From a virus, in the IMG/VR virus record IMGVR_UViG_3300037493_004064, positions 1-64,000 of that record: a stretch of 64,000 nucleotides of DNA. One strand, written 5' to 3'. Positions 12,966 through 56,503 of the stretch are shown piece after piece. The position numbers and the translations under genes were made by a program. Below the pieces are notes generated by a model. It made no database searches. It saw nothing but the letters and a program-made list of their open reading frames with translations, and was not told the origin of the DNA. Every line of letters starts with the position of its first letter. Positions within the stretch are counted from its first letter, which is position 1.

Positions 12966-12978
12966 ATTGTATTTAGTA

Positions 12979-15900
12979 TTACACGCGAGAATATTTTAAT
13001 AACTCTTCCCTGGTATCGTTACCAGACGCCATGTGATCACTGAGCGTATCCATCTTGTCTGAGAGCATTTTGAATAGTTCCAATAATACACCGGAGTCAG
13101 CATTGGCTGTCGGTGCTGCAGGGGTAGCAGTAGGCAATGGCTCTTTCTGAACAGTAGGCGCTTCGTTGCTTGCAACCAAACTATTAGGGTTTGGCATAGG
13201 TGTCACAGTTTCTCTGCCATGTAGTGTCACAGGGTATCCCGAAAGAGGTCCATTGAATAATCCACCAAACTTGGCATGTGGTGTCTTTTCTTCAACTGAT
13301 GCCACTGGTGAAAAACTGACAGACTTCATAATCCTGGCATTCACTGCTGCCTTGTATCCCTTTGGATCAGCAACAGGATCTGGCAGCGGTTCAGCCTTAG
13401 CAACTGGGCGAGGTGTGACCGCTGGCACTTTAGGTTTTGCAAACCAGTTGTCGCGTCCTGCCTTAGTCTTATCTATTTCCTCTTGGGATGATGGTTTAAA
13501 ATCGGGTTCAATGGAAGTTTGTTCAGTTTTTGCAGCAAGTGTTACAGGTGCCGCAGCAGTTGACACGGGTGTTACAGGTGCCGCAGCAGTTGACACGGGT
13601 GTTACAGGTGCCGCTGCCACTGGAGTAGGTGTTATAGGTGCCGCAGCAGTTGACACGGGTGTTACAGGTGCCGCAGCAGTTGACACGGGTGTTACAGGTG
13701 CCGCTGCCACTGGAGTAGGTGTTACAGGTGCCGCTGCCACTGGAGTAGGTGTTACAGGTGCCGCAGCAGTTGACACGGGTGTTACAGGGGTTACAGGGGT
13801 TACAGGGGTTACAGGGGTTACAGGTGCCGCTGCCACTGGAGTAGGTGTTACAGGGGTTACAGGCGCCGCTGCCACTGGAGTAGGTGTTACAGGTGTCGCA
13901 GCAGTTGACACGGGTGTTACAGGTGTTACAGGTGCCGCTGCGACTACTGGATCAGTAGATTCATTAGAATTTGCTAATCTTTCGTGAGTATTAAACTTTT
14001 CTTTTTGCATGGCAACAAATTGGACCGGGGTCTGTCCAGGTTTCATGCCATTATGCTTCATTGCCTCAATAACCTTCGGTCCTACTGGTTTACCCTTAAT
14101 TGCATCAATGACACCAGGACCAATATTATGCACCATGTATAGGTTTTCACCAGTAACAGGAACACCGGCTACTTCTAATAGTTTAGCATTATTTTTGGCA
14201 AGCAATGCGGTTGCCATCATGTTGATTCGTTGGTCTCTCCTAGGATCCTGTGGTGTTCTGAAATTTTCAGGAGTTACTGGCTTCATCCCAATTTCAATTC
14301 CCTCAAGAGTCTTGGCTAATGAATTCCAAGTTCCGTCAGGGATTGTTTTACCATCTTTGCCTAATTTTCCACCATGCCCAGCCGATGACTCAGTGAATTG
14401 CCCTATTCCTATTGCCCCTGTCGGTGACATTTCACCGGAATAGCCACCCTCCATTTTAGCGAATCCACGCATGGTTTTTTCGTCCATACCGAATTTTTTA
14501 GAGGCATCCCGTATGTTGTCGTCATTTTCTTTACCGAATCCACTAAACTTTCCCTCAGGAGAAAGTTTACTCTTTACGGCAGTTATTTTCTCAGTGCGCT
14601 CTGCTATTCCTGATTTTGTCTCGTTGATTTCTTTATCAACTTCACCAGTGCTTTGGCGACGGCGCTGAAGGAGTTCCTTTTTCTCATAAAGATCACCGAG
14701 TTTACTTTCAGCACTCTTATTTTCTGACTCTAATTCTTGCATCTCACGACGAATCTTATATTGCTTCTCCCTAAGGGCAATATCCTTTGCCACAGATGCA
14801 TTGACCTTCTTTTCATTTGCAGTGATTTCTTCCGTTATGGTGGCAAGGTTGACTTTAGCATTGTTAATCCGTTCATCTATTAGTTTTCTTTCATCGACGG
14901 TTGCACCACTTCTGATTGCTTCTGTGCGTTTTTCTTCGTCGTCAGCAATTGATTTCTCTAACGAGTCCTTACGATTTTTAAGAAGTTTAGCATTGGCGTA
15001 ATTAGTTTGTGTTTCATCTGATACATTAATGTTAGTGGTAGATTTTTCTTGTTTACTTGATTTTTCAACCTTCGGCGTTCCACCAGCAGGAGGCTTAGCC
15101 CCAACTATATTGTTAAATTTATTAACGGCTGCTTCAAACATCTCACTGGCCGCTTGGTTTATTTTTGCTGATTGATCAAAGTGTTTAATCGCACTGTCCT
15201 GCAACATAGCAGCAGCCTGTTGCGTTCTCCCTGCGCTTATATTTGCTGCCAATTGTGCGTCTGGTGTACCTTGCTTTTTCTGTTTTTCTGCCTCTAAATA
15301 TTCACCGGGATCAGAATAACCTGCTGACTTTGCAGCGGCTAACAATTTATCATATCCCTTTATCTTGTCAACACCATTAGCATAAGTCCCAGCTAACACT
15401 CCCCCTACATCTCCGCCTGCTGCCTTCGGAAGTGCCATTGCTCCAAGTGCGCCCTTCCAACCACCCATAGCAAGTGAGAGGATTTTAGTCTGGTCCCGTA
15501 GACCGGTATTCACTGCATCAAGCGCTGGCTTGAACGTCAAATACGCAGCACTTGATTTATCATCAGTTGGCCCGCCTAATGCTGCGCCACGGGCTATTCC
15601 AATGGACCCTTCAATATTTCCCTGATTTCTTATATTTCTTGCAAGAATAGCAAGAGTTTGCAATCTGTCTAACTCTCCTTTATTATTCTCTTGCTCTGCC
15701 TTAAACATAGCCGCCCGGAGTTGGTCTTCGGCTAGAACCGCATCCATCGCTAACTCTTGTTCTTTTCTGGATACACCTGTGATGGCAGCCATCTTATCCA
15801 GTTCTTCCATGTAATTTTTTGCACCAGCCACCTGTTCTAGTTGAGTTTTATTAAGTAATGTCCCCATCCTTGTTTGCTGGGCCATCCACTTCAGGTCATG

Positions 15901-18003
15901 TTCACGCTGTTCGTCTACTGTTATCCCTAATCTTTCTAATTGTTCACCTATCTCAGATTTTTTTAGTTCATTTGCAACGTTGGCAAACGCCTTGGCACCA
16001 TCAGATGCAGTTCCTCCCATCATTGCTAAATCTTTGGCATTTGCCTTTAACAATGGTCCTAGTTTTTCTATCTCTTTGACAGTCAGGCCCAATTTTTGGG
16101 TCATATCAAATAATCCGGTTAACCCTTCGGATGTAGCTAAACCAACTTGAGAAAGGTCGTTGAAGGACTTGAACAGGGCATCGTTTTGCTCGGCGCCCTT
16201 TTTTTGCGCCTCAGTGAATAATTCAAATGCGGCAGTCGCAGCCATCGTAGCAACCCCGAGAATCTTAAGGACTGGACCACCCATAAGAAATAGTGCCCCG
16301 GCTAATCCATACATAAGCGGAGTAACCTTATCTACCGCAGATGCCAATGCGTTAACACCCACTGCTGCTCCGCGCTGACCAGCATAAAGAGATGTTGACA
16401 TTGACATAAAGCCAGCGACGAGTGCTTTCCCGGCGACTGCTATAGATTCAAATGCTATTTGTGCCCCTACCCCACCGCCAGCCATTTTAATTAACCCATC
16501 TTTTCCAGACTCTAATGCACTTGATAATGATGTAATTTTCCCCCTGATGTCTTTAAAGGTATCACCAGGGTTTGCTAACTTTTGAACAGTTTGTGTGAAC
16601 TTCTCCTGTTCTTCTTTTAACCTTCTCTGTGTTTTAGCAGCGTCTACTATTTCTTTCTGTTGATCCTTACTGAGGTCTTTAAACTGAGTTACAACTCCAC
16701 CGTATGCCTGATTACCAGCACTATATAGTGCGATCTGCTCCCTGTAAACTCTATTTCGCTGAGTCTCAGCAAACGACTCCTCACCTATCTGCTTCTTAAT
16801 GCGGTCAACGACCTTCCCTTCAATAAGGTGGCGCTCATCCATTGCTTTACGAATTCCGGCATTGAGTGAATCTTCAACGCCCAGTCGTTTTTTAGTTGTC
16901 TCAGCTAGTTCTTTATTAATCTTAAATTGTTCAGGGTTTGCCAACTTCTGAACTTGTTTGGTATACTTTTCTTGTTCTACTTGTAATTCCTGTCGTAGCC
17001 TTGCTGCCTCTACGACTGCGCCTTGCTCTTGTTTACTGAGGTCATCAAACTTTATATGCGACAAAGATTGTATAGTTTGTGCTAAGTTATCCTGGCCAGT
17101 TCGCAGTTTCTTCTGAACTATGGCTGCATATACAAGTTCGTCCTGTTGCTGTTTACTGAAGTCTTTAAATTGTGTTATGACTCCGCCATACGCCAAAGTA
17201 CCGGATCTAAATTGTGCAATTTGTTCTCTGAAAACTCTGTCATGTTGAATTGCCGAAAAAGCCCGTTCCTTTTCTGCATTGTTGGCGCCCTTCATGGACT
17301 GAATGGCACGTTCAATTACTCTTCCCTCAATGAGGTGGCGCTCATCCATCGCTTTACGAATTCCGACATTCAGAGAATCTTCAATGCCTAACCGTTTCTT
17401 GGTCTCTTCTGCCAAATCTTTGTTTATTTTAAGTTGTTCAGGATTGGCCAGCTTCTGAACCTCTTTAGTGAACTTTTCTCTTTCTTCCTGCAGTTTCTTT
17501 TGTGTCTTGGCAGCATCAACTAGTTGACTTTGTTGTTGCTTATCAAGATCCTTGAACTTTGTTACAACACCACCATATGCCATATTACCGGAACTATACT
17601 GCTGTATTTGTTCTCTGAATAATTTATTTCGTTGGGTTTCATTGAACGCATCGACACCTATTCTATCTTTGGCCCTTTCAACTATTTTTTGTTCAATCTG
17701 TTGTCGTTCGTCAAGTTTTCTACTAATATCGGCATTAGCAGTATCTTCTATACCCAACCGCTTATGAAATGATCTGGCAATTTCAGAATTGTACTCTTGC
17801 TGCCGTGACAGAGAAGTATCCCGGTCTTTTCTTATCTTATCCTCAATTGTCTCCGTTCGCGCAAAGTGTTCTTCAGTGGCCTTAACTTGTTTTTCAGTTT
17901 CGTCAGCTTGGCGCTTAACTTGTTCGCCCATGGATGACATGGCATCAGCCATACTTTGTATGGATGCAAGCAGTTGTTCTTGTACTTCTTCAGGTGTTGA
18001 CAT
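12979..18003 (-). CDS. Tape-measure-like protein with a lytic transglycosylase (SLT-like) domain
   Basis: 1674 aa, largely helical, with an Ala/Gly-rich hydrophobic stretch. SLT-like motifs [11 protein letters not shown]...FAKMEGG...GAIGIGQF...[10 protein letters not shown]-terminal [23 protein letters not shown]. Confidence 0.75.
13540..13945. repeat. Coding tandem repeats (30-bp and 9-bp units) encoding a Pro/Thr/Ala/Val linker
   Basis: Units gttacaggtgccgcagcagttgacacgggt and gttacaggtgccgctgccactggagtaggt, plus (gttacaggg)n. Protein reads ([20 protein letters not shown])n. Confidence 0.95.
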
Positions 18004-18020: not shown

Positions 18021-18074
18021 TATTTATTCATTTTTAATACCATTAAATTTACCCTATTTTTCATACACTAAATA
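18021..18074. promoter_or_regulatory. Divergent pair of late promoters (AATAAATA minus 18021-18028; ACTAAATA plus 18067-18074)
   Basis: AT-rich gap between the divergent tape-measure and gp26-like genes, with one TAAATA box on each strand. Confidence 0.6.
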
Positions 18075-18100: not shown

Positions 18101-18928
18101 ATGATTGAAAACAACCCGCTAAGACAATATTTTCGCCGCCCATCAATTTACATCAAATTACCAAGCGGGTATAAAAATTACCCCGAAGGAGTCATTGATG
18201 TGCCAGAGGCAGGAGAACTGCCGGTCTTTCCGATGACTGCCATTGACGAAATTACAGTGAACACACCAGATGCATTGTTCAATGGTACTGCCATCGTTGA
18301 AATTATCACAAGTTGTGTTCCAAGCATCAAGGATCCGTGGAGACTATCCAGCGTTGACCTTGATACCGTGCTGTTGGCAATCAAGTCAGCATCCGGTGGT
18401 AACGACATGGAAATTGAAACGACATGCCCGGCTTGCCAAGAAGCATCTACGTATGGTGTGAATCTTGTAGGACTGTTAACCTCAATCAAATCAGGTGATT
18501 ATGACACTGAACTTGCGGTGAACGATCTGCTGATTAAACTACGTCCGCTTACTTACAAAGAAATGACTGAAGTAGGACTTGGTCAGTTTGAACTACAGAA
18601 GATGTTTGCAGCAATTGACACGCTGGAAAATCTCACTGAAAAAACTAATAAGCAGCGCGAGGCTCTGAAAACCATCACTGATATCACCATGACTCTTCTG
18701 GCGAAGACCATTGAATATATCAAAACACCCAGTTCATACGTGGATCAGAAGGATTTCATTCTCGATTTTCTGAAGAACTGCGACAAGGGCATGTTTGAAT
18801 CAATTAGAAACCATAATACCAGTCTGAAAACAAAGTCTGAGGTGAAACCACTTCCGGTGAAATGCATTCACTGCCAGCATGAGTACTCACAACCTTTCTC
18901 AATAAACGCCGCTGATTTTTTCGGGTAA
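18101..18928 (+). CDS. gp26: Baseplate hub assembly protein / tail assembly chaperone (gp26-like)
   Basis: N-terminal RRPSIYIKLPS...PMTAIDE, two CxxC pairs (CPAC, CIHC) and a C-terminal DFFG, all typical of gp26-family proteins. Confidence 0.8.
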   Translation: MIENNPLRQYFRRPSIYIKLPSGYKNYPEGVIDVPEAGELPVFPMTAIDEITVNTPDALFNGTAIVEIITSCVPSIKDPWRLSSVDLDTVLLAIKSASGGNDMEIETTCPACQEASTYGVNLVGLLTSIKSGDYDTELAVNDLLIKLRPLTYKEMTEVGLGQFELQKMFAAIDTLENLTEKTNKQREALKTITDITMTLLAKTIEYIKTPSSYVDQKDFILDFLKNCDKGMFESIRNHNTSLKTKSEVKPLPVKCIHCQHEYSQPFSINAADFFG

Positions 18929-18963
18929 GGCTTCTACACCTTGACCCCGAAGGTGTACAGAAG
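18916..18963 (+). promoter_or_regulatory. Putative -1 programmed ribosomal frameshift signal
   Basis: Slippery heptamer T TTT TTC (18916-18922) in frame at the end of the gp26-like gene, a 7-nt spacer, then the hairpin GCTTCT-ACACCTT-gaccccg-AAGGTGT-ac-AGAAGC. The -1 frame is open to 19152. Confidence 0.7.
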
Positions 18964-18975
18964 CTATTAGATGAT

Positions 18976-19152
18976 ATGGAAGATGAGTGTACTGCAATTA
19001 AGAAAAATGCTCTTACTTGCTCTTGGTACATGCGGGGTGGAGTATCCTATGAGGATGTGTTGAACATGTCTATGGAGGAACGAAACCAAATAAATCAGAT
19101 CATATCTGATAACCTCAAGACCACGAAAGAAAGCAAACTACCATTCTTTTAG
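18976..19152 (+). CDS. Small gp51-like hub-assembly protein, or the C-terminal extension of the frameshift product
   Basis: MEDECTAIKKNALTCSWYMRGGVSYEDVLNMSMEERNQINQIISDNLKTTKESKLPFF (58 aa, absent from the ORF track). It lies in the -1 frame of the upstream gene, and that frame is open from 18916. Confidence 0.75.
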   Translation: MEDECTAIKKNALTCSWYMRGGVSYEDVLNMSMEERNQINQIISDNLKTTKESKLPFF

Positions 19153-19174
19153 ACACCACGGTGTCTTTTCTTTT
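19151..19174 (+). terminator. Probable terminator of the gp26/gp51-like unit
   Basis: AGACAC-CACG-GTGTCT followed by TTTCTTTT. Confidence 0.6.
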
Positions 19175-19299
19175 GGCATTCCATTCCATTATTTGTCATT
19201 TATATTTTGCTCTCTTTAGAGATGTGCTACGCACATCTGATCCCTTCGCTTCGCTCGGTATCACTCTAATTCTTTTTTATTCTACTCTCTATTTGCTTA

Positions 19300-19756
19300 T
19301 CGGATATCCACTTCACCTTGGAGCCATGGTAGTGCCAATTCAGCACTACCAAATGGAAAGTTTCACCCTATCCCCTCTGTTGTCTCTATCCCAGATAATT
19401 AGGCGTCTACTACTATCTGCTACCGGTTGCTCTGTAAAGTTGTTATGGATCTGTAGTTGAGACAATATGGCTTAAACTTCACCATACCTCCCAGCAACGC
19501 ATGTTCTGTACCATCACGACAAAGTAGGCACAGACTCATTCAGGGTTCACATTTCTACCATGGTGAGAGCCCTGTCGGTATTCCCCTGGTATTATTAGCG
19601 CAATACCAAGGCTATACTCCAGTATCTGACGGCACAGCACAATCTGTACAACCTCAAGGAGAGTCGGGCGTCCCGACTAGACGAATTAGGCTAAGGCTTT
19701 GTGCCAGTGTTTGGTGTCAGGCTAGTGACGGGGAATTTGATTTGACCTGGTGTCTG
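19300..19756 (-). ncRNA. Putative large structured non-coding RNA (about 450-600 nt), family unassigned
   Basis: No credible ORF. At least 8 helices, and the non-Watson-Crick pairs inside them are G-U on the minus strand. A late promoter GCTAAATA sits at 19759-19766 (minus). The ends are approximate. Confidence 0.65.
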
Positions 19757-19758
19757 TT

Positions 19759-19766
19759 TATTTAGC
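19759..19766 (-). promoter_or_regulatory. Late promoter (GCTAAATA) pointing into the non-coding region
   Basis: Same octamer as the box before the 20254 gene (20261-20268). No ORF follows it. Confidence 0.55.
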
Positions 19767-19810
19767 AAGTATAACACGTTCCGTACGAAAATTATACTGT
19801 ATTTGGGTAA

Positions 19811-20254
19811 CTATCTTTTCATTTTTGCCTCTTCGGCCGTTTCCTCTGGAGGAAGAAACTTGATGCCTGAGATAAGGCCGTTGTAGCTTTTCCGTGCGCC
19901 GTTAGGTAGTTTTGTTCGTAGAACATCTTCCATAATTTGAAGTTTTACTTCTGCATAGACGAGCGATGCGCGTGTCTTATGCAGGGAAATAATCTCAAAG
20001 CGATAGTTGTCTTTGCCATTGGTGGCAATCGAGGTGTTGAGTCTGACTGAAGAACCCATATAGGTTTTCCAATCAGACTCCTTGATCACCTTCTTCTTAT
20101 TTTTTCTGCCCTTGACTGTTTTTCTTAGATGCTGATGCAGTTGCTTCTTGCCGACGTATTCCATTCCGGTGCTTATCTCTGTAATTCGGTAAAGAAAACC
20201 GAACCAGTCGTCAATCTCAAAAACGTGTGGGAACTCCCAATGACCTGTATCCAT
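19811..20254 (-). CDS. GIY-YIG-superfamily nuclease-like protein
   Basis: GFLYRIT...EYVGKK corresponds to the GIY...YIG pair. Also ESDWKTYMGSS, a conserved Glu (YAEV) and Asn (SYNG), and a basic insert RKTVKGRKNKKK. Confidence 0.75.
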   Translation of the reverse strand: MDTGHWEFPHVFEIDDWFGFLYRITEISTGMEYVGKKQLHQHLRKTVKGRKNKKKVIKESDWKTYMGSSVRLNTSIATNGKDNYRFEIISLHKTRASLVYAEVKLQIMEDVLRTKLPNGARKSYNGLISGIKFLPPEETAEEAKMKR

Positions 20255-20270
20255 GCGAGATATTTAGCCA

Positions 20271-22352
20271 TTAGTCCATCTCCGTAGAAGTATTGTACGA
20301 GGTGAATCCACCTTCTTTTACGACCTTCAGGACACTCGGTACTCGCCCTGCAAGTTCTTCTCGGTGAGAGACAAGCCAGATAGATTTCTGACGACGACGG
20401 CTCATATCCTTGAGAATAGCAATGGCGTTTTCTACACCCATCGTGTCAAGTCCGGAGTCAATCAACTCGTCAATGAATAAAGTATTGACTGGCTTGTATA
20501 GGTTTTCCCAAACATCACGGAAAGCAAACGACAAACCAAGAATCAGTCTGTTGCGCTCACCACGGGACAGGTTATCAAAGTCAAGTTCACGCCCCAACTC
20601 AGTAATCTCCACATTCAGATCGTTTTGGAAGACAACCTGATGTGGCAGACCGATCTTGTCAAGGTAGTGTGTCAACCTGGCATTCAAAAATGACAGATTT
20701 TGATCAATGATCTTCTTACGAACAAACGAATCCTTGCTGGTCAATAGTTCCAACAGGAACTTCTGGTGATCCATGGTCTTTGTCAGTGAGTTGATCATGT
20801 CAAAGTTCGTTACCTGTAGAGCCCTCTGCTCCATGTCAACGATTTGTTCCTCATAAGGATCAACCTCTGCGCTCTTGTTTTCCATTTGCGTCAGCAGATT
20901 AGCCATGGTTGAACTATGCGTCACCGCTTCGGCCTCAGTGTCATAAACGGTAACAGGTGGCTTGGATAAAGTTGTTACGCTATTGAGCAGTTCGTTGGCT
21001 TGCTCGGCATATGGGTCAGACTCATTCTCTTTATCTGTGATCTTGTGATTGATGCTTTCCAGTTCGCTGGAGTGTTTGAACGCTTCTTCTTCTGTTTTGT
21101 ATAGAGTTGATGGCATCTTACCAAGAGAAATCTTATTTTCTCCTAGATGGATGAGGAGGTCAAGAGAGGTGTTGTGGCTGCTTATTGCCAGAACCAACGC
21201 CTCTTCTTTCGCATCAAGGACAACGGTGTGTTGCTCATCATGTAACTCCTGCCCACAGGCATAACACTTATGATCATGAAGTTGGGCAATCTCTGCCTCA
21301 AGTTTTTTGATTTCCTTATCATGCCTGACACAATCACCGGTTGCCCGTTTGATATCAGCGTCTTGTGTTGCCTTATCCTTGACACGTTGGTTGTACTCGG
21401 CGACCTGTCGGTGCTTTTGTAGTTCCTTGACGATATCAATGGAGTTCTTTTTGTCGTAAGCCTTCTGAAACTCCGCGACTTCTCGTTTATTCTTATCAAA
21501 CCATGCAGTAGAGCGGGCTGTCAGCGACATATAACTCTGGTTTACTTCTTTGTTCTTGTTGTAGACCACAAGGTCTTTATGCGCCTGTAGTTCTGCCACG
21601 ATATCTATTTTGGACAGGGCATCATACGATTCCACATAGGCAGCAAGGTCAGACTCCTTCTTGGAAACCCATAACCGCTGTCGCCGCTTCAACCCATCAA
21701 TCTGTTCAAGGATACGTTTGTTTGCCTCTTCTACTGCTTTGATACGGAACTCTTCGGTTCGTATGGCATCTTTACTGGTGGTAAGCAGTTCTTTTACCGT
21801 CTCGGCTTTCTCGCTGAGGATTGTGATTCCCAATAACTGCTCAATGATTGCTCGTTGATCACTGTTCTTCAGGGCAAGAAACGGTTCGGAATAGGTATTC
21901 AGTGCCACGATGTGTTTGAACATGTCAGCAGACATGTTGATTACTCGCTCAATGGCTGCTTGAGTTTCTTTGTTCTCGCCTTGGGCATCATCCTGTTGCT
22001 TTTGTAGAGTGTTGTTCACGTAGAACTTCAACAGATTAGGCTTGCGTCCTCGCTCAATCTTGTACTCCACTCCATCAACACTGAAAGTCAGAGTGACCAG
22101 CATGTTCTTGCCGTTGGTGCGATTGACCAGGTTGTCTTTTCGGATGCTATTGATAGGCACACCGAACAAAGCATAAGAAAGACCTTGGATCAACGATGTC
22201 TTGCCGGTACCATTTCGTGCCCCATCACCACCAAGATCAAGATTCTCTCCGAGGATCAGTGTTAAGTCAGTCCGGTCAAAGTTGACTGCTTGGGTGACAG
22301 CACCGATAGATAGGAAGTTGCGAATTGTAATGTCTTTGAGGATGATGGTCAT
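20271..22352 (-). CDS. gp46: Recombination endonuclease ATPase subunit (gp46/SbcC/Rad50-like)
   Basis: Walker A RNGTGKTS, zinc hook CYAC, signature LSRGE, Walker B LFIDELIDSGLD, H-loop VSH. Confidence 0.95.
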   Translation of the reverse strand: MTIILKDITIRNFLSIGAVTQAVNFDRTDLTLILGENLDLGGDGARNGTGKTSLIQGLSYALFGVPINSIRKDNLVNRTNGKNMLVTLTFSVDGVEYKIERGRKPNLLKFYVNNTLQKQQDDAQGENKETQAAIERVINMSADMFKHIVALNTYSEPFLALKNSDQRAIIEQLLGITILSEKAETVKELLTTSKDAIRTEEFRIKAVEEANKRILEQIDGLKRRQRLWVSKKESDLAAYVESYDALSKIDIVAELQAHKDLVVYNKNKEVNQSYMSLTARSTAWFDKNKREVAEFQKAYDKKNSIDIVKELQKHRQVAEYNQRVKDKATQDADIKRATGDCVRHDKEIKKLEAEIAQLHDHKCYACGQELHDEQHTVVLDAKEEALVLAISSHNTSLDLLIHLGENKISLGKMPSTLYKTEEEAFKHSSELESINHKITDKENESDPYAEQANELLNSVTTLSKPPVTVYDTEAEAVTHSSTMANLLTQMENKSAEVDPYEEQIVDMEQRALQVTNFDMINSLTKTMDHQKFLLELLTSKDSFVRKKIIDQNLSFLNARLTHYLDKIGLPHQVVFQNDLNVEITELGRELDFDNLSRGERNRLILGLSFAFRDVWENLYKPVNTLFIDELIDSGLDTMGVENAIAILKDMSRRRQKSIWLVSHREELAGRVPSVLKVVKEGGFTSYNTSTEMD

Positions 22353-36095: not shown

Positions 36096-39000
36096 ATGGC
36101 ACCAAGAATCAGGACATTAAACTTTCTTCCGGATATTTTCAGAACACCGACGAACTCGCAATTCCTACGCGCAACATTGGATCAGGTTGTTGACCAACCT
36201 AACATTCAACGAGTTGAAGGATACATAGGTAGCAAGTTGGGATACGGTATTAATGCCAAGGACAAGTATGTAACGGAACCAACTAAGGTTCGCACAGATT
36301 ATCAACTGGCACCTGGCGTCACCTTCCTGAAAAATAACACTAGCACTGCTCAGGACTTCATCAGTTATCCTGGTATCATTGATGCAATCAAAGTGGAAGG
36401 AGGGCTAACCAATGACAACTCACGATTATTCACCGGTGAGTTTTATTCATGGGACTCTTTCACAAATCTTGACAAGATCATAAACTTCAATCAATATTAC
36501 TGGTTGCCAACTGGTCCGCAGGCCGTGATCATTGATGCTGCCACAGTATATTCCGCCACAGACTACATTGTTGACAGTGTGGTAAATGGGTATAACATTT
36601 ATTCCGGTACTGGCTCGCATGGAGCAACAAATCCAACTCTTACCCTGTTGCGCGGTGGCACTTACACTTTTGCTGTAAATCAGAATAGTCAGTTCTGGAT
36701 TCAGGGCGAACCTGGTATTACTGGCTTCTCGCACACACAACCTAATATGCAGACAAGAGATGTATATGGTGTGTCAAACAATGGAGCCGAGACTGGTGTT
36801 GTCACCTTTACTGTCCCGAGTAAAACGGCTCAGGACTACTACAACTTTCCAGGAAATAACCTTGTTGATGTGGTATCTACATTAGGATTTGGGCAGGTCA
36901 ACGGTCGCCGTCTATCTGAGATAGGCGGGAGCATAGACGGCATCACCTCATTGGATGGGCTGACATTGATGTTCTATAATGGTCTGTCAGACGAGATTGC
37001 TAATTTCGGTGCATACGATGTACAGGAATTTGATCAAAACAATATTTGGATGAATGTAAGTTTTGATGATGATGGAATGATTTACCAACCAGTGAGTAGT
37101 TGGTTCTTTCAAATTCACTTCCTGTCGAACCCAGAAAATCCAAGTGATCCAATTATTCAACTTGTTCCTGTGTCGTCTATTCCTACTGACGAAAAGATTA
37201 CTGCAACGTATGGAACTCAATGGGTAAATAGGAACTTCTTCAGAGACACATACGGATACATTGAATTGATCCCTTATATCAGTGCTCCGTTGAACACACT
37301 CTACTACCAAGACGGCACCACCGGCAATAAGGTCGGTGTCATCAAATTGATTGAGAGCAACACCACAAATACTCTTAACATATTGGATATTATAGGTAAA
37401 AAGACCTACACTTCGCCGAGCGGCGTGGTGTTCACCAATGGACTAAAGGTTATGTTCCAAGGTGCCATATACCCGACCAGTTACAAGAACAATGAATACT
37501 ATGTTGAGGGAGTTGGAACTGCCATTGAATTAATACTGGTGAATGACCTTGTGGTCCCGGAATTGTTCTCTGCTGGATCGTATATTCCGTATGATTCAAC
37601 TGCGTATGACATTGGTAACTTTGACAGTCAACTATACGTGCCTGTTGACCAAGACTATATTACAATCTCACGAAACGCCATTAACAAGAATGCATGGTCC
37701 AGAAGCAACAGGTGGTTCCACATTGATGTGATTAATGCCACAGCAGTTTACAACAATGATCCTGCTTTGGCAAATGTTGCCACACACGAAAACAAAGCGA
37801 AACGCCCGATCATCGAGTTCTATCCTAACCTTGCCATGTTTGATGCCGGCACATTTGGAAAGAACCCAATTGATTTCTTTGACTTCAGAACAACGGATGC
37901 TCTCACTTATGTCTCCGGACAACAACAATACTATCCTGACGTTGAAGTATACACGGACTATACTGGTGTAATTGCAGCAGTTACTGGAACATCAACTACT
38001 ATTACGTTGGATAATAGTGCAATTCACGGAACCTTAGTCATTGGGCAATATGTTGCCGATTCAGAATCTGTTCTTCCTGAAAATACGCAGATTTCTTTAG
38101 TCGAAGTGTTAGGCCCAACAACAACAATCACATTGGAATGGGAGACATCAACTACCGTTTTGACAACATCCGGTGTCTCTCTAATTGCGACCACTACCAC
38201 GGTGGATAACTACGCTCTATTCGACGGAGCCCGAGTGGTGTTCGCCGCCGATACAAACTTGACAGTGAGAAATAAGATTTTCGTGGCAAACTTCTCAACT
38301 GTCTCCGGAACTACCCCAGTTATTACTTTGACTGAGGCAGAAGACGGTGCCGTGATCGCCAGTGAACAAACTGTGGCATATCGTGGATACAATTATGCCG
38401 GGGAAACGTTCTTCTTCAATGGCCTCTCTTGGGAATACGGTCAGCAGAAGATAAGCGTCAATCAACCACCATTGTTTGATGTGTTCGATGGGAATGACCT
38501 TAGTTTTTCCGATCAAACAATTTATCTTGGGTCGTCGTTCAAGGGTTCTAAGTTATTTTCTTATAGGCTTGGATCCGGACTCAACGACTCTGTATTGGGC
38601 TTCCCAGTAAGATATAGTTCAGTTGATAACATCGGTGATATAAGTTTTGATGTGAGCATCAATCTTGATTCCTTTTCGTATGTTGCCGGAACCACACCTG
38701 AAACAAAGAAAGTTAATACAGGGTATGTGTTTAACTACTCATCACCATCTGCACATGTTCGCCAGTTAGGTTGGCATACTGCCATTGCACCGAGCGTTCA
38801 ATATCAGGCGTTTGAGTTTGCTTACTCTGCCCAGACACCAACTACCACATACATTTGCGACATACCAATGACAGCACAGACTGCCAACTCGTGGCCGTCG
38901 ATACAAGTATATCTGAACAATGTTTTCCAAGTTGATTCGGCTTACTCGGTCGTGGTGACGGATGTTACCACTGTTACTTTTGTAAACCCTGAACCATTGA

Positions 39001-42000
39001 TTGACAACGTAATCCAGATTCTGCTGCTGAGTGATCAAGTAAGTGCCAATGCCTACTACACTCTTCCTATCAATCTAAGCAACAATCCGCTGAACGCAGA
39101 TGTTACCGTGGTAAACATCGGTGACATTCGTGGTCAATATCAGAGTATCTTCTACAATGCCCCGGGCCTTACTGGCTTAGTATTCGGATCTAACAACTAC
39201 CGAGACTCCGGAGATTTAGTTCCATACGGTTCCTCTATTATTCAGAATAGCGCGTCACTGGTGCTCCCAGGAACGTTCCTTCGTAAGCAGAATCATAATC
39301 TATTCCATGCGTTGATGTTCAACAGCCGAGAGTATATCACTTACAAAACACTATTAGTTGATACCATTAACAATACAGAATATTCTGTGTTCCAATCAGC
39401 GGCCGCGATGCTCGATGACGCATTTGATCAGATCACCGCAGTTAAGTCCGGAACCGATACTTTCTTCTGGAGCGATATGCTTCCGGCGAAGGCATCCTAT
39501 ATATCAAACACTTATCTCTTTGCAAACTCACTTGATGTAAGTATCTACCCTCTGAGCAGGATCTATGACTTTACCAAGGCCAACTACTACGGTGTTCTTG
39601 TCTACCTGAAAAGGACCATCGGCGGGTTCCTACAGACAATTCAGTTAATTAAGGGGACTGATTATTCAGTGTCAACAGATACACCGTCATTAACTATAAC
39701 TCTGGACCTGGCACCAGGTGACGAGATTGTAATCAAAGAATACACACAAACATATGGCAGTTATGTTCCTAATACTCCAACTAAGTTGGGGCTGTATCCT
39801 GCCACTATTCCGACAGTTTATTTGGATACCTCATATACCACGCCGACATACTTCATCGTCGGTCACGACGGATCTTACAATAAGTTATACGGTGACTATG
39901 ACGAAAACACCGGTCGTCTGATTGATTTCAGAGACCAGGTTCTATTGGAGTTTGAGAAGCGCATCTATAACAACCTGAAACTGAGCAATGTCATACCTAT
40001 TCAGGAATATGAGGTCTTGCCTGGATTCTTCCGTGATACCGGATATAGTTACTCGGAAATCCTACAGATTTACTCAGAGAGTTTCCTAAACTGGGTCGGT
40101 CAAAACAGGATCGATTACAAAACTCAGCACTACATGGCCAACGATGAGTTCACGTATAACTACCGTAACTCCGGCAACAAGATAAACAATGCTCCGATTG
40201 AGCAAGGTTTTTGGCGCGGGGCTTATGAGTATTTTTACGACACAAGTTCTCCTGAGTTAACTCCTTGGGAAATGCTCGGCTTCACCAGCCAACCATCATG
40301 GTGGGAAACTCGCTATGGCCCGATGCCATACACCAGCGACAATTTGGTTCTATGGGGCGACCTTGCCCAAGGTATAAACTGGAACAACGGCGACCCAGTA
40401 GTGATTCCTCAGGCAGTGCGTCCTGAGTTACTACAGGTTCTGCCAGTTGACACTGCTGGCAATCTTGTTTCTCCATTTGTCTCATTAGTTGGTAACTACA
40501 CTAACCAGACGTTCATTCACGATTGGGCAGTTGGTGATGTTGGGCCGGCAGAGTTTAGTTATCGCCGTAGTAGTTCATGGCCGTTTGATCTGATGCGTAT
40601 TCTGGCCCTGACAAAACCGGCAGCGTTCTTCAATCTTGCTGTGGACGTTGACAACTACAAATACAATGCAGAATTCGACCAGTATCTGGTCAATGATCGT
40701 AGTCACCTTGTAATCAGTGACGTTGAAATATATGGATCCGGTACACCAAAAACAAGTTATATCAACTGGGTCGTTGATTATGAGAAGCAACTTGGAATAG
40801 ACGCCACTCAACAAATCACTGACCTGTTGAGCAATCTTGATGTCAGGTTGGTCTATCGTGTCGCCGGATTCAGTGATAAGAACATGTTGAAGTTCTATGT
40901 GGAGAAGGGAACACCGAATAGCAACAATAGTTCATTGTTGATCCCTGATGAAAGTTACGCTGTGCTGCTTTACGACAACCAACCGTTCAATCGGGTTGTT
41001 TACAGTAGCGTGGCCATCCAGATTATACCACGCGGTGGATACAAGATTTTTGGTAACTCCCAGACAAACGCATACTTCAGCGTGATCAAACCTAAGATCA
41101 ATGGGAACTACGAACAGGTTCAGATTGACAATCTTAGTGTTCAAGTGGCAAACGACTATTATGACACAGAAATGGTAATACCTTACGGCACAGAGTTTTA
41201 CTCTGTCCAAGAGGTTGCCCAGTTCCTTGCAAGTTATGGACGATATCTCCAATCTCAGGGTATGGTCTTCGACAAGATTGAAAATGGACTGGAGATCACC
41301 TGGGTTCAGATGGTTTCCGAGTTTCTATACTGGGCACAAACTGGTTGGGAAGCCGGCAGCATCATCAACGTCAATCCAGCTGCTAAACTTCTGACCATTA
41401 ATAAGGACAGTAATATTGTTCAGCCGCTTACTCTGCAACAACAGAACTTTGTGTTGAATCAAAATCTGTATCCAATCCAGTCAATTGATCTGGCTGTGGT
41501 GCGAGACGGGACTCTGTTCTCTGCTGAACCATTGAACGAGGGCGATACCATCTCCTATGGCACCTTCAACATCAGCAACATTGAACATGGCATTGTATTT
41601 GATAATGTAACAGTGTTTAATGATGTCATCTATAATCTGACAACTGGACTGCGACAAGACCGAATCATAGTTCGTGGTAGCAAGACCGCCGACTGGACCG
41701 GTGTAATCGACGCCCAAGGCTTCATACTCAATCAGGACAACATCGCTGATTGGAGCAATACAACTAAGTATACTACTGGATCTATTGTAAAATACAAGAA
41801 CAAATACTGGATTGCCATTGAGATTGTTCAGGCACAAGAGAAGTTTGACGAAACGCAATGGAAGCGCACTGACTACAATGAGATTCAGAAGGGCCTGCTG
41901 CCTAACTCCAGCACACGCTCATATGAGAGCACCCTGTATTACAATATCAACGTTGCCAATCTGGAAAAAGATGCCGATTTACTGAGTTTCTCCCTCATTG

Positions 42001-45000
42001 GGTTCCGACCACGTGACTATCTGGCAGTGGCTGATCTAACTGATATTACACAGATCAATGTTTACAGAAACATGATCAAGAACAAGGGCACCAGAAATGC
42101 CGTGAATGCCTTTAAGGGTGCCACGCTGTCACAAGGTGGTATTGACTATAACATCTATGAAAACTGGGCCATTAAATCTGCTGAATACGGCGGCACCCTC
42201 AATAGCAACTTCATTGAACTACGATTGAATGAAGGTGACCTTACTGGTAATCCAAGTATTGTTGGGCTGACCCGTGGCACTCCAACTGTTGGTGTCCAAC
42301 AAGAAGTTCAAACATATTCACTGTTCAACTACGGCAGAGCAATCACCTCCCCTGATGTTCTACCACTGCTTGATAGTAATACACCATCAACACTTTACCC
42401 GGACGCAGGATATGCCAACTTCAATGATGTGAAGATGTCATCTTACTTCTACTCTGGTATGTCAACGGCGGTTGATTCCTCAGGAGTCATTGTTCCTTTG
42501 AACGAACTGTATGTCAGAGATTATGTGTGGATTGCCAATCAGTTAGGCACCTGGCAGACATATACTCCGGTATCACTGGGTCAGATTACGAATGCCGCTA
42601 ACAATCGCAATGGCACAGTAACAATAACCTTCAATCAACTACATGGTTTGACCAAGTATCAGTCCCTGGCTATTACTAACTTCAATGCCGATGTTGACGG
42701 TTACTATATTGCCACAACTATCGTTGACCCGTTCAGAATCACTATCAATCTGATGCTGAATCCTACGATTGCTAATATCAGCGGTATCGGTATCGGGTTC
42801 CGTTTCCAATCTCAGCGGGTAGATCAACCAAGCGACATCATCAACCTGCCACTGCTTGATAGTGAATTCACCAAGAACACTGTATGGGTTGACACTAATA
42901 CCGACGGTGAGTGGGCCGTATATCGCAAAGGCATCAACTACACTCATGCCCCTGAAATCACAAAAGACGGTTCACTGTCCTTTGGATCAGCAGTGGCATA
43001 CACCGACGCATTGGGCTATCTGATTGGTGATGCTGACGCCGGAGTAGCATACAGATACATCTACAATGCTCTCAGTAAGGACTATGTGTTGAATCAGACC
43101 ATCACCAATGGTGTATCGTTCGGCTCCACTATATCTCATGCCGATAACATCTTTGTTGTATCGCAACCAACTGGCACTTTTTACACAGACAGAAAAGTTT
43201 ATGTGTATGAACTGGTCACTACTATTCTTACCAATGAACTTCAATTGATACAAACTATAGTGGCACCAAGTGATGGCATAACATCCTGGGCCAGCGCCAC
43301 TACTATATCAGGTGATAAGAATTGGCTGTATGTATCTGATATTGCCAATAATATAGTTTATGTATATCAGTGGTCTCCTGTAACTTCTCAATATGAATAC
43401 GCCACTATCATAAATGGTTGGGATTACATTGTCACTGGAGCCGACGATCACTTCAGTTACTCTCTGTCAACTGATTACTATGGTGATACGTTGGTTGTCG
43501 GCGCACCTGATCAAAACTATGGTCCGCTTGAGAATTGGGGTTATTCTTATGTATTCGTTCGAGGCACTCAAAACTGGGAAGCAACTTATACCAGCTTATC
43601 TGCACAACAACAGTTGTTCACTTCGGCATGGACTATATCTCCTGGCACATCTACTAACGTTGTGTCAACCTCAGCAATAACAAATTATCTGACAACCTTT
43701 GTGGGTGATGAGCCTTTGGATCCGGGACAAGTCGGAGATCCGGTAATATTCTCCGGTTCATTATTCGGTAACCTTTCTCCAAATGTCGTCTATTATATTC
43801 AGTCGGTAGTTGGCGATCATACTTTTACAATTTCTACTTCTCGTGGCGGAGCAGTAATGCCTCTGCTAACTGGCTCCGGTTCAATGACATGTAACTTCCA
43901 AACTCCATTGTATGTAAGTGTAAACGGAACTCTTGTGGATGACAGCAACTATGCCGCGATCGGCACTTCTTTGGTGTATGTCGGTGGACTATCTGCTGGT
44001 GACATTGTAAACGTCGGATCGTCTGATTTTATTCTGGAACAGACACTAACCACTGAAACAACACCGAGAATCGGCGTGAAGTTTGGTAACTCAAATGACA
44101 CCACAAGATATGCCAGCGAAATTATAGTTGGCGCTCCGTTTGAACTTGACACGCAACAGATTGAAGGTGCCGTGTTCAGATTCACTAATGCCGGATGCAA
44201 ATACGGTATGATCATCGGAACCGAAGACTGCATCATCGCTTCTCCTGTGACTATTCTGCTAAACGGGTATGCTGTCACTCTACCAGTCGGTGATGCCACA
44301 ACAGCAGCGGCTGCAATAAATGGTGCCGGTATTACAAATATTCAGGCAGCAGCAGCCAGCAACAAACTGATCATTCAATTGATCAATCAGTCACTGGCTA
44401 TTCCGAACAATAAACTTACGCTGACTGCAAATGACTCCGGAGTTCTACCTCAAACTGGTATTCAAGTATACACTCAAACTCAGTTGATCATGGCTCCTCA
44501 TACAGAGAAAACATGTCAGTTCGGTTCCACAGTTAAGTTTAATGAATTCGGTTCATTTGTGGCGTCTGCACCGTCTGGAACCCGATATGAAGCAACAACG
44601 TTTGACTTCACTGATGATGAAAACGATAACGATACGGTGTTTGACAACAACACAACTCAGTGGGTTGACACATTTGCCAACGCCGGTGCTGTATACATGT
44701 TTGATTACCTTGGTAACTATGATGAAAGTCTGTCAAATATTGGTAACTTTGTATATGCACAAAGCGTCAATGATACCAATGTTGAGTATGGTGCTCAGCC
44801 AATGTATGGGCATGCTCTTGCCTTTAACAACAATGTAGTCATAGTCGGCACTCCGGGATTCAATCCAGGCTTTGTGAACGGTCAAGTAACTAAATATACC
44901 ACTACTCTCGGAACAGATTGGTCGGTTCATAGACAATCAGGGCCTATAGTTGATGTGGATCGTATACAGGACATTCAGTTGTTCAGTGCGCTTACTAATA

Positions 45001-56495: not shown

Positions 56496-56503
56496 TCTAA
56501 ATA
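56496..56503 (+). promoter_or_regulatory. Late promoter (TCTAAATA) heading the enzyme operon
   Basis: TAAATA box, then an AGGAG SD, then the ATG at 56520. Confidence 0.55.

What the first reader, a model, noticed from the sequence alone, without database searches (positions are those of the whole stretch)
19151..20268. Large, ornate non-coding RNA with its own late promoter, directly downstream of a GIY-YIG nuclease gene
Seen in sequence: about 600 nt without a credible ORF in an otherwise gene-dense genome. Minus-strand helices are AGTCGGG/CCCGACT (19678-19662), CCTTGGTATTG/TAATACCAGGG (19611-19584), CAGGG..TCAC/GTGA.CCCTG (19574-19541), TCTGTGCC/GGTACAGA (19534-19505), GGTATGGT/GCCATATT (19488-19464), GTTGCT/AGCAAC (19498-19493 with 19431-19426), CAGATAGT/ATTATCTG (19419-19392) and TGGTAGTGCT/GGCACTACCA (19351-19327). 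A long-range pairing CCTTGAG/CTCCAAGG (19659-19653 with 19323-19316) could close the domain. The 8 non-Watson-Crick pairs in these stems are all G-U on the minus strand (A-C on plus), which points to a functional minus-strand RNA. A GCTAAATA late-promoter box (19759-19766) fires into it, identical to the box in front of the co-oriented GIY-YIG gene. I could not match it to tRNA, tmRNA, RNase P or group I/II intron cores. Inference: this is a phage large ncRNA (in the spirit of GOLLD/ROOL, or new) that may form a ribonucleoprotein with the GIY-YIG protein. That protein has a very basic insert (RKTVKGRKNKKKVIK) and no separate DNA-binding domain. The unstructured ~75-nt 5' segment (19755-19680) could be a variable leader or guide, but that is speculation.
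Basis: partly seen in the sequence, partly recalled or inferred. Interest (0 to 1): 0.88.

Follow-up and report, generated by a model that had tools for sequence, protein, structure and literature searches.

The report
Uncatalogued knotted RNA of lake jumbo phages
The gene-free gap encodes a real, intricately folded non-coding RNA shared by many uncultured freshwater giant phages, but it is tied to a different small nuclease gene that this phage has lost, not to the GIY-YIG gene beside it, and its job is still unknown.

Summary
Window 19678-19324 (minus strand) is the ~355-nt core of a structured RNA, with a 5' leader from about 19754 and two tail hairpins down to 19220.

On 56 relatives below 84% identity, 95.6% of base-pair cells are paired (81.9% when shuffled, 31-42% when slid). 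51 of 79 pairs show compensatory changes. G-U cells outnumber A-C cells 166 to 13 on this strand.

No Rfam family matches, and ARAGORN finds no tRNA or tmRNA. There is no match in GenBank phages or in the prokaryote genomes scanned.

The RNP idea fails. In 124 of 127 loci where an upstream ORF was called, that gene is a PD-(D/E)xK nuclease (PF24608). A GIY-YIG gene sits directly upstream only in this phage and two fetches of one near-identical contig. This phage has lost the nuclease gene yet keeps 71 of 74 pairs.

The window's odd 3' domain carries the family's twin box: GGTGAA written twice.

This scan has found the same family several times before on other DNA. Function is unknown. My best guess is a trans-acting RNA particle.

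The parts
19324..19678 (-). Core of the structured RNA, about 355 nt, from hairpin H1 to the end of hairpin P10 and its CCA/UGG extension
   Evidence: Covariation count on A4. The window forms 71 of 74 family pairs. Coordinates.
19662..19678 (-). H1 hairpin AGTCGGG/CCCGACT
   Evidence: A hairpin of at least 5 bp in 56 of 56 members, with different sequences. Compensatory changes are visible.
19617..19661 (-). P2 (CTCC 19661-19658 with GGAG 19620-19617) enclosing hairpin P2a (19649-19644 with 19637-19632)
   Evidence: P2 is 99.6% paired and changes to CUCU/AGAG in 3 members. In other members P2a is replaced by other stems with GNRA-type loops.
19584..19611 (-). P3 variable hairpin
   Evidence: 5 of 5 pairs change on both sides (helix 4).
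19421..19580 (-). P4 (TACCG 19580-19576 with CGGTA 19425-19421), closing the central domain that holds P5, P6, P7 and P8
Evidence: 98.6% paired; 3 of 5 pairs covary (helix 5).
19541..19574 (-). P5 hairpin. The window copy has an extra ~8 nt in the loop.
   Evidence: 100% paired; 4 of 5 pairs covary (helices 6-7).
19501..19539 (-). P6 hairpin. Its loop makes pseudoknot PK1.
   Evidence: 99.2% paired; 10 of 11 pairs covary (helix 8).
19518..19522 (-). PK1 5' strand TTGTC, in the P6 loop; pairs with GACAA at 19384-19380
   Evidence: 100% paired; 5 of 5 pairs covary (helix 9). First seen.
19380..19384 (-). PK1 3' strand GACAA
   Evidence: helix 9.
19426..19498 (-). P7 (GTTGCT 19498-19493 with AGCAAC 19431-19426), enclosing variable hairpin P8 and the conserved ACTACAG...TTTACAG strand
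   Evidence: 96.1% paired; 4 of 6 pairs covary (helix 10).
19447..19450 (-). PK3 5' strand ATCC; pairs with GGAT at 19391-19388
   Evidence: 98.1% paired; 4 of 4 pairs covary (helix 11).
19388..19391 (-). PK3 3' strand GGAT
   Evidence: helix 11.
19393..19418 (-). P9 hairpin
   Evidence: 9 of 10 pairs covary (helices 12-13).
19327..19351 (-). P10 hairpin TGGTAGTGC/GCACTACCA, the most conserved element
   Evidence: Invariant in 56 members, but the members were found with this hairpin as the search pattern, so the invariance is partly by construction.
19362..19367 (-). Twin box A, GGTGAA
   Evidence: The same word as box B. In the family the two boxes change together.
19312..19317 (-). Twin box B, GGTGAA, just 3' of P10
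19744..19754 (-). Leader box GACACCAGGTC. Family consensus is GACAC(C/A)A(N)GTC(A).
   Evidence: Present in 53 of 56 members, 32-132 nt before the core. It occurs once, or twice in tandem, per locus and only at this place. In the window, similarity to relatives begins here.
19679..19743 (-). Variable leader between the box and H1
   Evidence: Variable in length and sequence. In relatives it overlaps the 3' end of the nuclease ORF. It has no other match in the record.
19759..19765 (-). CTAAATA late-promoter-like box, 4 nt before the leader box
   Evidence: 15 sites in the window against 7.6 expected; 0 of 100 shuffles reach 15. Its function was not tested.
19220..19262 (-). Two tail hairpins: T1 at 19262-19239 with a GAGCGAAGCGAA loop, and T2 at 19238-19220. 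No U tract follows them.
   Evidence: T2 covaries in 25 members (pairs 588-595 with 600-607). T1 was read and not counted.
19811..20254 (-). SegE-type GIY-YIG nuclease gene, 147 aa. It is a neighbour, not part of the RNA unit.
   Evidence: PF19835, E = 7e-33. It sits directly upstream of the RNA in only 3 of 147 RNA loci.

Best explanation
This is one copy of a large, uncatalogued family of non-coding RNAs carried by uncultured freshwater jumbo myoviruses. The family is distantly related to T4. The nearest cultured relatives by portal protein are XaC1, Atu_ph07 and 121Q.

Shown:
- The minus strand folds into a ~355-nt core of ten helices held together by two covarying pseudoknots, PK1 and PK3.
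- A variable leader precedes the core and starts with a conserved GACAC..GTC box. Two hairpins follow the core.
- The RNA is single-copy. It lies at the end of the leftward gp55-gp47-gp46 gene block, convergent with the gp26-like baseplate hub gene.
- In nearly all relatives the RNA starts just after a PD-(D/E)xK nuclease gene (PF24608).
- In this phage that gene is gone. Similarity to relatives resumes exactly at the leader box, and a SegE-type GIY-YIG gene occupies the place. The closest relatives (L002/L003) show an intermediate state: the GIY-YIG gene plus an N-terminally truncated nuclease ORF.

Inferred:
- The GIY-YIG gene is a mobile invader of the locus, so its adjacency to the RNA is incidental.
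- The RNA does not need the nuclease gene in cis. It keeps 71 of 74 pairs, and 13 pairs differ from L002 by compensatory changes.

Mechanism, inferred at about 25-30% odds: the RNA is made late. It is either read through from the upstream genes or started at the CTAAATA box. It acts in trans as a compact particle. The two identical single-stranded boxes flanking P10 would bind two copies of one partner, which could be a dimeric protein or a repeated nucleic-acid word.
For: Structure: one search counted 56 members.
- 95.6% of cells are paired, against 81.9% when shuffled and 31-42% when slid.
- 51 of 79 pairs change on both sides; 0 of 500 shuffles reach the observed values.
- (25 members): 35 of 70 predicted pairs change on both sides.

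Strand: 166 G-U against 13 A-C cells.

No ORF is conserved.

Size of the family: 31 and then 120 or more viral contigs matched two patterns. 147 loci hold the RNA, 77 of them below 92% identity.

Context: 124 of 127 loci with a called upstream ORF have the nuclease gene; 172 gp26-like ORFs were called among the three nearest downstream ORFs, 116 of them as the first. The nuclease is PF24608, E = 2.5e-24.

Loss in this phage:
- No nuclease match in the 87.7-kb record.
- The L003 ORF lacks the first ~50 residues and the E-x-K motif.
- The alignment shows that homology starts at the leader box.

Integrity of the window copy.

Twin box.

Expression, weak: metatranscriptome contigs cover 19039-19379 at depth 9.8 and 19080-19507 at depth 15.6. 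Other pieces of the same runs have depth 2-9.
Against: - No transcript end or strand was seen. The RNA-library evidence is unstranded contigs, which may contain DNA and which run on into the convergent ORF.
- The G-U asymmetry would also fit a folded single DNA strand.
- The record is estimated to be only 21% complete, so the nuclease gene may lie elsewhere in the genome.
- Near-universal adjacency to the nuclease gene could mean a functional tie that this lineage has only recently lost.
- No partner for the twin boxes was found in cis. The trans-acting mechanism is a guess.
- The 147 loci include repeat fetches of some contigs, so the counts are of loci, not of genomes.
- All members were found with two conserved words, so more distant relatives were not sampled.
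Confidence: 0.85

Rival explanations
1. The RNA is the partner of the PD-(D/E)xK nuclease encoded just upstream in relatives, as a ribonucleoprotein or an RNA-directed or RNA-regulated nuclease. The window copy would then be an orphan that still works with a nuclease gene elsewhere in the genome, or one that is on its way out.
For: The nuclease gene is the immediate co-oriented neighbour in 124 of 127 loci with a called upstream ORF. The RNA leader overlaps the 3' end of that gene. In L002/L003 the ORF keeps its C-terminal two thirds although the catalytic N-terminus is lost. The record is only 21% complete.
Against: The window and its near-identical relative keep the RNA without the gene. The fold is intact and shows compensatory changes against the nearest relatives. 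Three cultured jumbo phages have nuclease homologues but no RNA within 2.5 kb by nhmmer at E up to 10. The core has no hypervariable unpaired segment that would look like a guide; the variable parts are paired stems.
Confidence: 0.2
2. It is a cis-acting 3' element of the leftward operon. It would stabilise or end the transcripts at the convergent junction and have no role of its own.
For: It always lies at the 3' end of the gene block, facing convergent genes. The tail hairpins lack a U tract. RNA-library contigs run across the junction.
Against: Ten helices and two pseudoknots with near-invariant junction strands are far more than a terminator or stabiliser needs. The element is kept although the gene upstream of it has been exchanged.
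Confidence: 0.1
3. The RNA assembles with copies of itself into an RNA-only multimer, as reported for GOLLD and ROOL.
For: Its size, ornateness and phage origin resemble those RNAs. I saw only the listing and abstract of 10.1101/2024.12.08.627333. Two identical exposed boxes per molecule could serve symmetric contacts.
Against: No match to the GOLLD or ROOL models. The boxes are not self-complementary. There is no evidence about oligomeric state.
Confidence: 0.12
4. The folded molecule is single-stranded DNA, for example an origin or a packaging signal, and not RNA.
For: G-T wobble is tolerated in DNA hairpins too. The tail carries GCGAAGC-type mini-hairpins, which I recall as being stable in DNA; the first-reader note e1-6126457 says the same and is unchecked.
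Against: The pseudoknotted multi-helix architecture, with conserved unpaired junctions, is typical of RNA. RNA-library contigs cover it at higher depth than most other pieces of the same runs.
Confidence: 0.03
5. One reading: the RNA forms an RNP with the GIY-YIG protein.
For: They are adjacent and co-oriented in the window, L001 and L002/L003.
Against: The RNA is present in only 3 of 18 GIY-YIG loci. Relatives at 59-64% identity (L005-L008) have no RNA downstream. The GIY-YIG gene is directly upstream in only 3 of 147 RNA loci.
Confidence: 0.02

Closest known systems
GOLLD (RF01998) and ROOL (RF03087) large ornate RNAs
   Same: They are large, highly structured, often phage- or prophage-borne non-coding RNAs found by comparative genomics, with no established function. 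GOLLD was first seen in lake metagenomes; that point is recalled. For 10.1101/2024.12.08.627333 I saw only the listing and abstract.
   Different: There is no sequence or structure match (cmscan). The core is about 355 nt, against about 580-800 nt (recalled). No tRNA gene is nearby. The locus is fixed behind a nuclease gene. The RNA has two covarying pseudoknots and a twin box.
Polynucleobacter-1 motif (RF01718; Weinberg et al. 2010, PMC2864571)
   Same: It is a fresh-water and estuary-derived candidate RNA (passage from a table of the paper). Earlier notes of this scan named it as the closest known family.
   Different: No cmscan match at E up to 10 on the window stretch or up to 5 on six members. 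I did not see its structure.
Bacterial RNase P RNA and tmRNA
   Same: Similar length (about 350-400 nt) and use of long-range pairings and pseudoknots. A few short words resemble RNase P conserved regions; that comparison is from recall.
   Different: No Rfam match and no ARAGORN tmRNA. The order of helices does not fit RNase P as I recall it: here P9, P10 and both pseudoknot 3' strands follow the closing helix P4.
T4 SegE and other free-standing GIY-YIG homing endonucleases (for the neighbouring gene)
   Same: The SegE_GIY-YIG domain matches at E = 7e-33. The gene is patchily distributed, in different contexts, among related phages.
   Different: It has only 147 aa and no extra DNA-binding domain. 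Homing activity was not tested.

Membership tests
Uncatalogued jumbo-phage pseudoknotted RNA family (defined here and in earlier notes of this scan) | Core helices P2-P10 at homologous positions | tested here: met
   The window forms 71 of 74 family pairs.
Uncatalogued jumbo-phage pseudoknotted RNA family (defined here and in earlier notes of this scan) | Pseudoknots PK1 (P6 loop) and PK3 | tested here: met
   TTGTC with GACAA and ATCC with GGAT in the window. 5 of 5 and 4 of 4 pairs covary.
Uncatalogued jumbo-phage pseudoknotted RNA family (defined here and in earlier notes of this scan) | Twin box: the same word before and after P10 | tested here: met
   GGTGAA at 19367-19362 and 19317-19312. 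This word occurs in 0 of 55 other members' box-A regions.
Uncatalogued jumbo-phage pseudoknotted RNA family (defined here and in earlier notes of this scan) | Position directly behind a PF24608 PD-(D/E)xK nuclease gene | tested here: not met
   The gene is absent from the window and from the 87.7-kb record. This is a feature of the context, not of the RNA. The leader box that lies inside the gene's 3' end in relatives is kept.
Uncatalogued jumbo-phage pseudoknotted RNA family (defined here and in earlier notes of this scan) | Convergent with the small ORF and the gp26-like baseplate hub gene | tested here: met
GOLLD / ROOL | Match to the Rfam covariance model | tested here: not met
   No hit at the gathering score, at E up to 10, or on six members at E up to 5.
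RNase P RNA | Match to the Rfam models and the order of helices | tested here: not met
   The comparison of helix order is from recall.
tmRNA / tRNA | tRNA-like domain found by ARAGORN | tested here: not met
   0 genes in the window.
Group I or II intron | Rfam match and an interrupted host gene | tested here: not met
   No Rfam hit. The element lies between convergent, complete genes.
Polynucleobacter-1 (RF01718) | Match to the Rfam covariance model | tested here: not met
   3 of 18 GIY-YIG loci hold the RNA. 3 of 147 RNA loci have the GIY-YIG gene directly upstream.

The most novel reading that the evidence does not exclude
The RNA is a programmable recognition module. Its two identical single-stranded boxes, which change together between phages, would base-pair with a word that occurs twice, or with a two-fold symmetric target, in DNA or RNA. 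That would direct or license the neighbouring PD-(D/E)xK junction nuclease, or another recombination or packaging factor, during late replication. This would be an RNA-guided structure-specific nuclease system of jumbo phages.
Probability: 0.06. Interest if true: 0.95.

Novelty: new variant of a known kind. Interest (0 to 1): 0.72.

Why it matters
Large, ornately folded RNAs of unknown function are rare. Past examples turned out to be ribozymes, riboswitches, guide RNAs or RNA-only cages. This family is abundant in lake jumbo phages and is absent from Rfam 15. My three paper searches did not find it.

It has two unusual features. It has a doubly pseudoknotted core. It also carries a pair of boxes that stay identical to each other while they change between phages.

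This window adds a natural experiment. The usual upstream nuclease gene has been lost after invasion by a GIY-YIG gene, yet the RNA is still under structural selection. That argues the RNA has a role of its own.

Tried and rejected
- Single-sequence folding gave no signal: z = -1.24 on the minus strand and -0.05 on the plus strand.
- Rfam found nothing at the gathering score or by E-value.
- ARAGORN found no tRNA or tmRNA.
- blastn of the window RNA and of a typical member against 50,697 GenBank phage records gave no match.
- An exact scan for the P10 hairpin pattern in 185,579 prokaryote genomes gave 0 matches.
- An nhmmer profile of the family found nothing at E up to 10 around the nuclease homologues of the cultured phages PA5oct, Phosso and SCTP-2.
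- The profile also found nothing downstream of the more distant GIY-YIG homologues (for all 18 GIY-YIG loci at E up to 1e-3; for L004, L005, L006, L009 and L010, where the only match was E = 3.2).
- A second possible pseudoknot, GGAGU with the 5' half of the P6 loop, overlaps both P2 and PK1. I dropped it without counting it separately.
- I looked for a cis partner complementary to the twin boxes and found no consistent site.
- Mutual information between the leader box and the core columns was only at background level.
- My first automatic twin-box test picked consensus-like words and was uninformative. The strict 6-mer test gave 4 of 10 in a member's own box A against 5 of 550 in others. The free-register comparison gave 8 of these 10 sharing a word of 6 nt or more.
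- The internal loop between P2 and P2a showed linked changes that I could not turn into pairs.
- I did not build a covariance model.
- The L006 189-aa ORF next to the gp26 block is not PF24608, so it says nothing about relatives that lack the RNA.
- In the sequencing runs, parts of the stretch without cover in X19 and X20, and the empty run X21, show nothing.
- Supplementary files of the papers were not opened. Those of PMC2864571 may hold the Polynucleobacter-1 alignment.
Full report
**What is in the window.** The window is a fragment of a T4-like myovirus. It has a T4-type portal, a gp55-like late sigma factor, SbcD/gp47- and SbcC/gp46-like nucleases and a gp26-like baseplate hub.

Its portal protein is closest, at 47-51% identity, to those of the cultured jumbo phages XaC1, Atu_ph07 and 121Q. 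The record is 87.7 kb and is estimated to be 21% complete.

On the minus strand the genes run in this order: gp55-like (24319-23414), gp47-like (23365-22349), gp46-like (22352-20271), then a 147-aa SegE-type GIY-YIG gene (20254-19811). On the plus strand the gp26-like gene (18101-18928) and a 58-aa ORF (18976-19152) run towards them. The gap 19153-19810 lies between these convergent genes.

Folding one sequence is not convincing: z = -1.24 on the minus strand and -0.05 on the plus strand.

Comparison is convincing. Relatives of the GIY-YIG protein led to two contigs, L002 and L003, in which about 530 nt of the gap are 68% identical to the window and the stems carry compensatory changes.

A 26-base word of the RNA then found 31 viral contigs. 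With a relaxed expression, 147 loci, the window included, hold the element. 103 of them are distinct and full-length, and 77 are below 92% identity. Apart from a 99% twin, the window is 57-70% identical to the rest.

RNAalifold on 25 members predicted 70 pairs, 35 of them with changes on both sides.

I then wrote a structure with pseudoknots and counted it on 56 members below 84% identity:
- 95.6% of 4384 cells are standard pairs, against 81.9% after shuffling and 31-42% when the 3' partner is slid by 1-3 columns.
- 51 of 79 pairs change on both sides.
- None of 500 shuffles reaches any of the observed measures.

The strand is the window's minus strand: the pairs hold 166 G-U cells and 13 A-C cells. 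No reading frame is kept.

**Anatomy in window coordinates, minus strand.**
- H1: 19678-19662.
- P2: 19661-19658 with 19620-19617, enclosing hairpin P2a.
- P3: 19611-19584.
- P4: 19580-19576 with 19425-19421. It closes a domain that holds P5, P6, P7 and P8.
- P5: 19574-19541.
- P6: 19539-19501.
- P7: 19498-19493 with 19431-19426, with the variable hairpin P8 inside.
- P9: 19418-19393.
- P10: 19351-19327.

Two pseudoknots tie the fold together. PK1 joins the P6 loop (19522-19518) to 19384-19380. It is 100% paired and 5 of 5 pairs covary. PK3 joins 19450-19447 to 19391-19388, and 4 of 4 pairs covary.

P10 is invariant, but I searched with it. In some members the 26-base word of P2a is replaced by other hairpins.

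Behind the core come an A-rich linker and two tail hairpins (19262-19220). The second tail hairpin covaries. No U tract follows them.

**What the RNA is linked to.** I called the nearest ORFs around all 147 loci and clustered them.
- In 124 of the 127 loci where an upstream ORF could be called, the immediate upstream, co-oriented gene is a ~189-aa protein.
- That protein belongs to Pfam PF24608, 'Phage putative PDDEXK endonuclease' (E = 2.5e-24). Annotators of cultured phages call it a resolvase.
- Downstream, the gp26-like gene is the first or second convergent neighbour in most loci.
- The GIY-YIG gene is the direct neighbour in 3 loci only: the window and two fetches of one 99%-identical contig.
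- These counts are of loci. Some contigs were fetched twice.

Conversely, of 18 loci with relatives of the GIY-YIG protein, only L001-L003 hold the RNA. Relatives at 59-64% identity sit behind gp46 as well but have other genes downstream.

**What happened in this phage.** The 87.7-kb record has no PF24608 match.

In L002/L003 the order is gp46, a radical-SAM gene, the GIY-YIG gene, a 151-aa ORF and then the RNA. The 151-aa ORF aligns with the last two thirds of the nuclease. It lacks the first ~50 residues, and N-Y-K stands in place of the E-x-K motif.

In the window, similarity to these relatives starts at a 12-nt box, GACACCAGGTCA (19754-19743). In relatives this box lies inside the 3' end of the nuclease ORF. 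It is present in 53 of 56 members, 32-132 nt before the core. It occurs once, or twice in tandem, per locus and only at this place.

I infer that a mobile GIY-YIG gene entered the locus and that the nuclease gene then decayed. The surviving unit, from the box to the tail, marks what selection keeps.

The RNA itself is intact. It forms 71 of 74 pairs. Against L002, 13 pairs differ on both sides and stay paired.

A CTAAATA word lies 4 nt before the box. It occurs 15 times in the window against 7.6 expected. It may be a late promoter, but relatives have coding sequence at that position, so the start of the RNA is open.

**The twin box.** Earlier notes of this scan on other genomes said that the family carries a short word written twice that changes in both places together. 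I tested this here.

The stretch before P10 and the stretch just after it share GGCAA in most members. When the word departs from that consensus, the two copies usually depart together:
- GGTGAA in the window (19367-19362 and 19317-19312)
- AGCAAG in L002
- GCAAGTA in L023
- CGGTAA in L051
- AGTAAT in L064
- AGCAAT in L080
- AAGCAG in L099
- AGCAGA in L146

L061 and L069 do not share a word.

In a strict test, 4 of 10 deviant 6-mers recur in the member's own box A, against 5 of 550 in other members' box A.

This explains why the window's 3' domain looked deviant. It is not decayed; both boxes have changed. I found no complementary partner in cis.

**Expression.** Two metatranscriptome runs of one study hold contigs over 19039-19379 (depth 9.8) and 19080-19507 (depth 15.6). 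Other pieces of these runs on the 3-kb stretch have depth 2-9, and the DNA run of the same sample has about 4. Contigs show no strand, may include DNA, and run on into the convergent ORF. This is a weak hint only.

**Comparison with what is known.** Rfam 15 has no match at the gathering score on the window, at E up to 10 on 18900-20300, or over the RNA in six typical members at E up to 5. That covers GOLLD, ROOL, RNase P, tmRNA, the group I and II introns and Polynucleobacter-1.

GenBank phages hold nothing similar. The scanned prokaryote genomes have no P10 pattern. Cultured jumbo phages with a nuclease homologue have no such RNA nearby.

Three paper searches found no description of the family. 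I saw only listings and abstracts, plus two passages of PMC2864571.

By kind, the closest are the orphan large ornate RNAs GOLLD and ROOL. By homology, nothing is close.

**Verdict.** The RNA is real, and as far as I could search it is uncatalogued. This scan has met the same family several times before on other DNA.

The conserved neighbour is a PD-(D/E)xK nuclease gene, which this phage has lost.

The function is unknown. My best guess, at about one chance in four, is a trans-acting particle that presents two identical boxes to a two-fold partner. A tie to the nuclease stands at about one in five. A purely cis role or a single-stranded DNA role seems unlikely.

Noticed in passing
window 36096-53528 (+): One open reading frame of 5810 aa. 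This fits a jumbo phage. I did not examine it.
   Followed up: no
window 12979-18003 (-): A 1674-aa protein with long internal repeats and a proline/valine/threonine-rich repeat tract (TPVTPV...). It lies next to the portal gene.
   Followed up: no
window 19151-19166 (+): A terminator-like hairpin of the plus-strand genes, AGACACCACGGTGTCT followed by a T run. Its first half resembles the leader box of the RNA (GACACCA.G).
   Followed up: partly
window 19477-19483 (-): A third copy of the window's twin-box word (GGTGAAG) lies in the P8 loop. I cannot tell chance from meaning.
   Followed up: no
window 19239-19262 (-) and relatives: The loop of tail hairpin T1 is itself a short direct repeat: GAGCGA then AGCGA in many members, GCGAA twice in the window. 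Another first-reader note (e1-6126457) covers these mini-hairpins.
   Followed up: partly
L003 3050-3954 and L002: A radical-SAM gene (PF04055) and a small ORF are inserted between gp46 and the GIY-YIG gene. A similar ~293-aa gene sits upstream of the nuclease gene as the second or third ORF, 32 ORFs in all, so this junction is a hot spot for insertions.
   Followed up: partly
window 12970-12976, 18068-18074, 20261-20267, 56497-56503: CTAAATA words lie 5-27 nt before gene starts on the coding strand. This is a candidate late-promoter word for this phage.
   Followed up: partly
L165 (Pseudomonas phage PA5oct) 1-5378: The cultured jumbo phage PA5oct keeps the same neighbourhood (baseplate hub, resolvase-like nuclease, recombination endonuclease) in another arrangement, with a 660-nt stretch that holds only tiny ORFs.
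   Followed up: partly
many loci, just before H1: An A/T-rich word such as TATAAAAATT, followed by AATTNG, directly precedes H1 in many members but not in the window. It could be a late promoter for an RNA that starts at H1.
   Followed up: no
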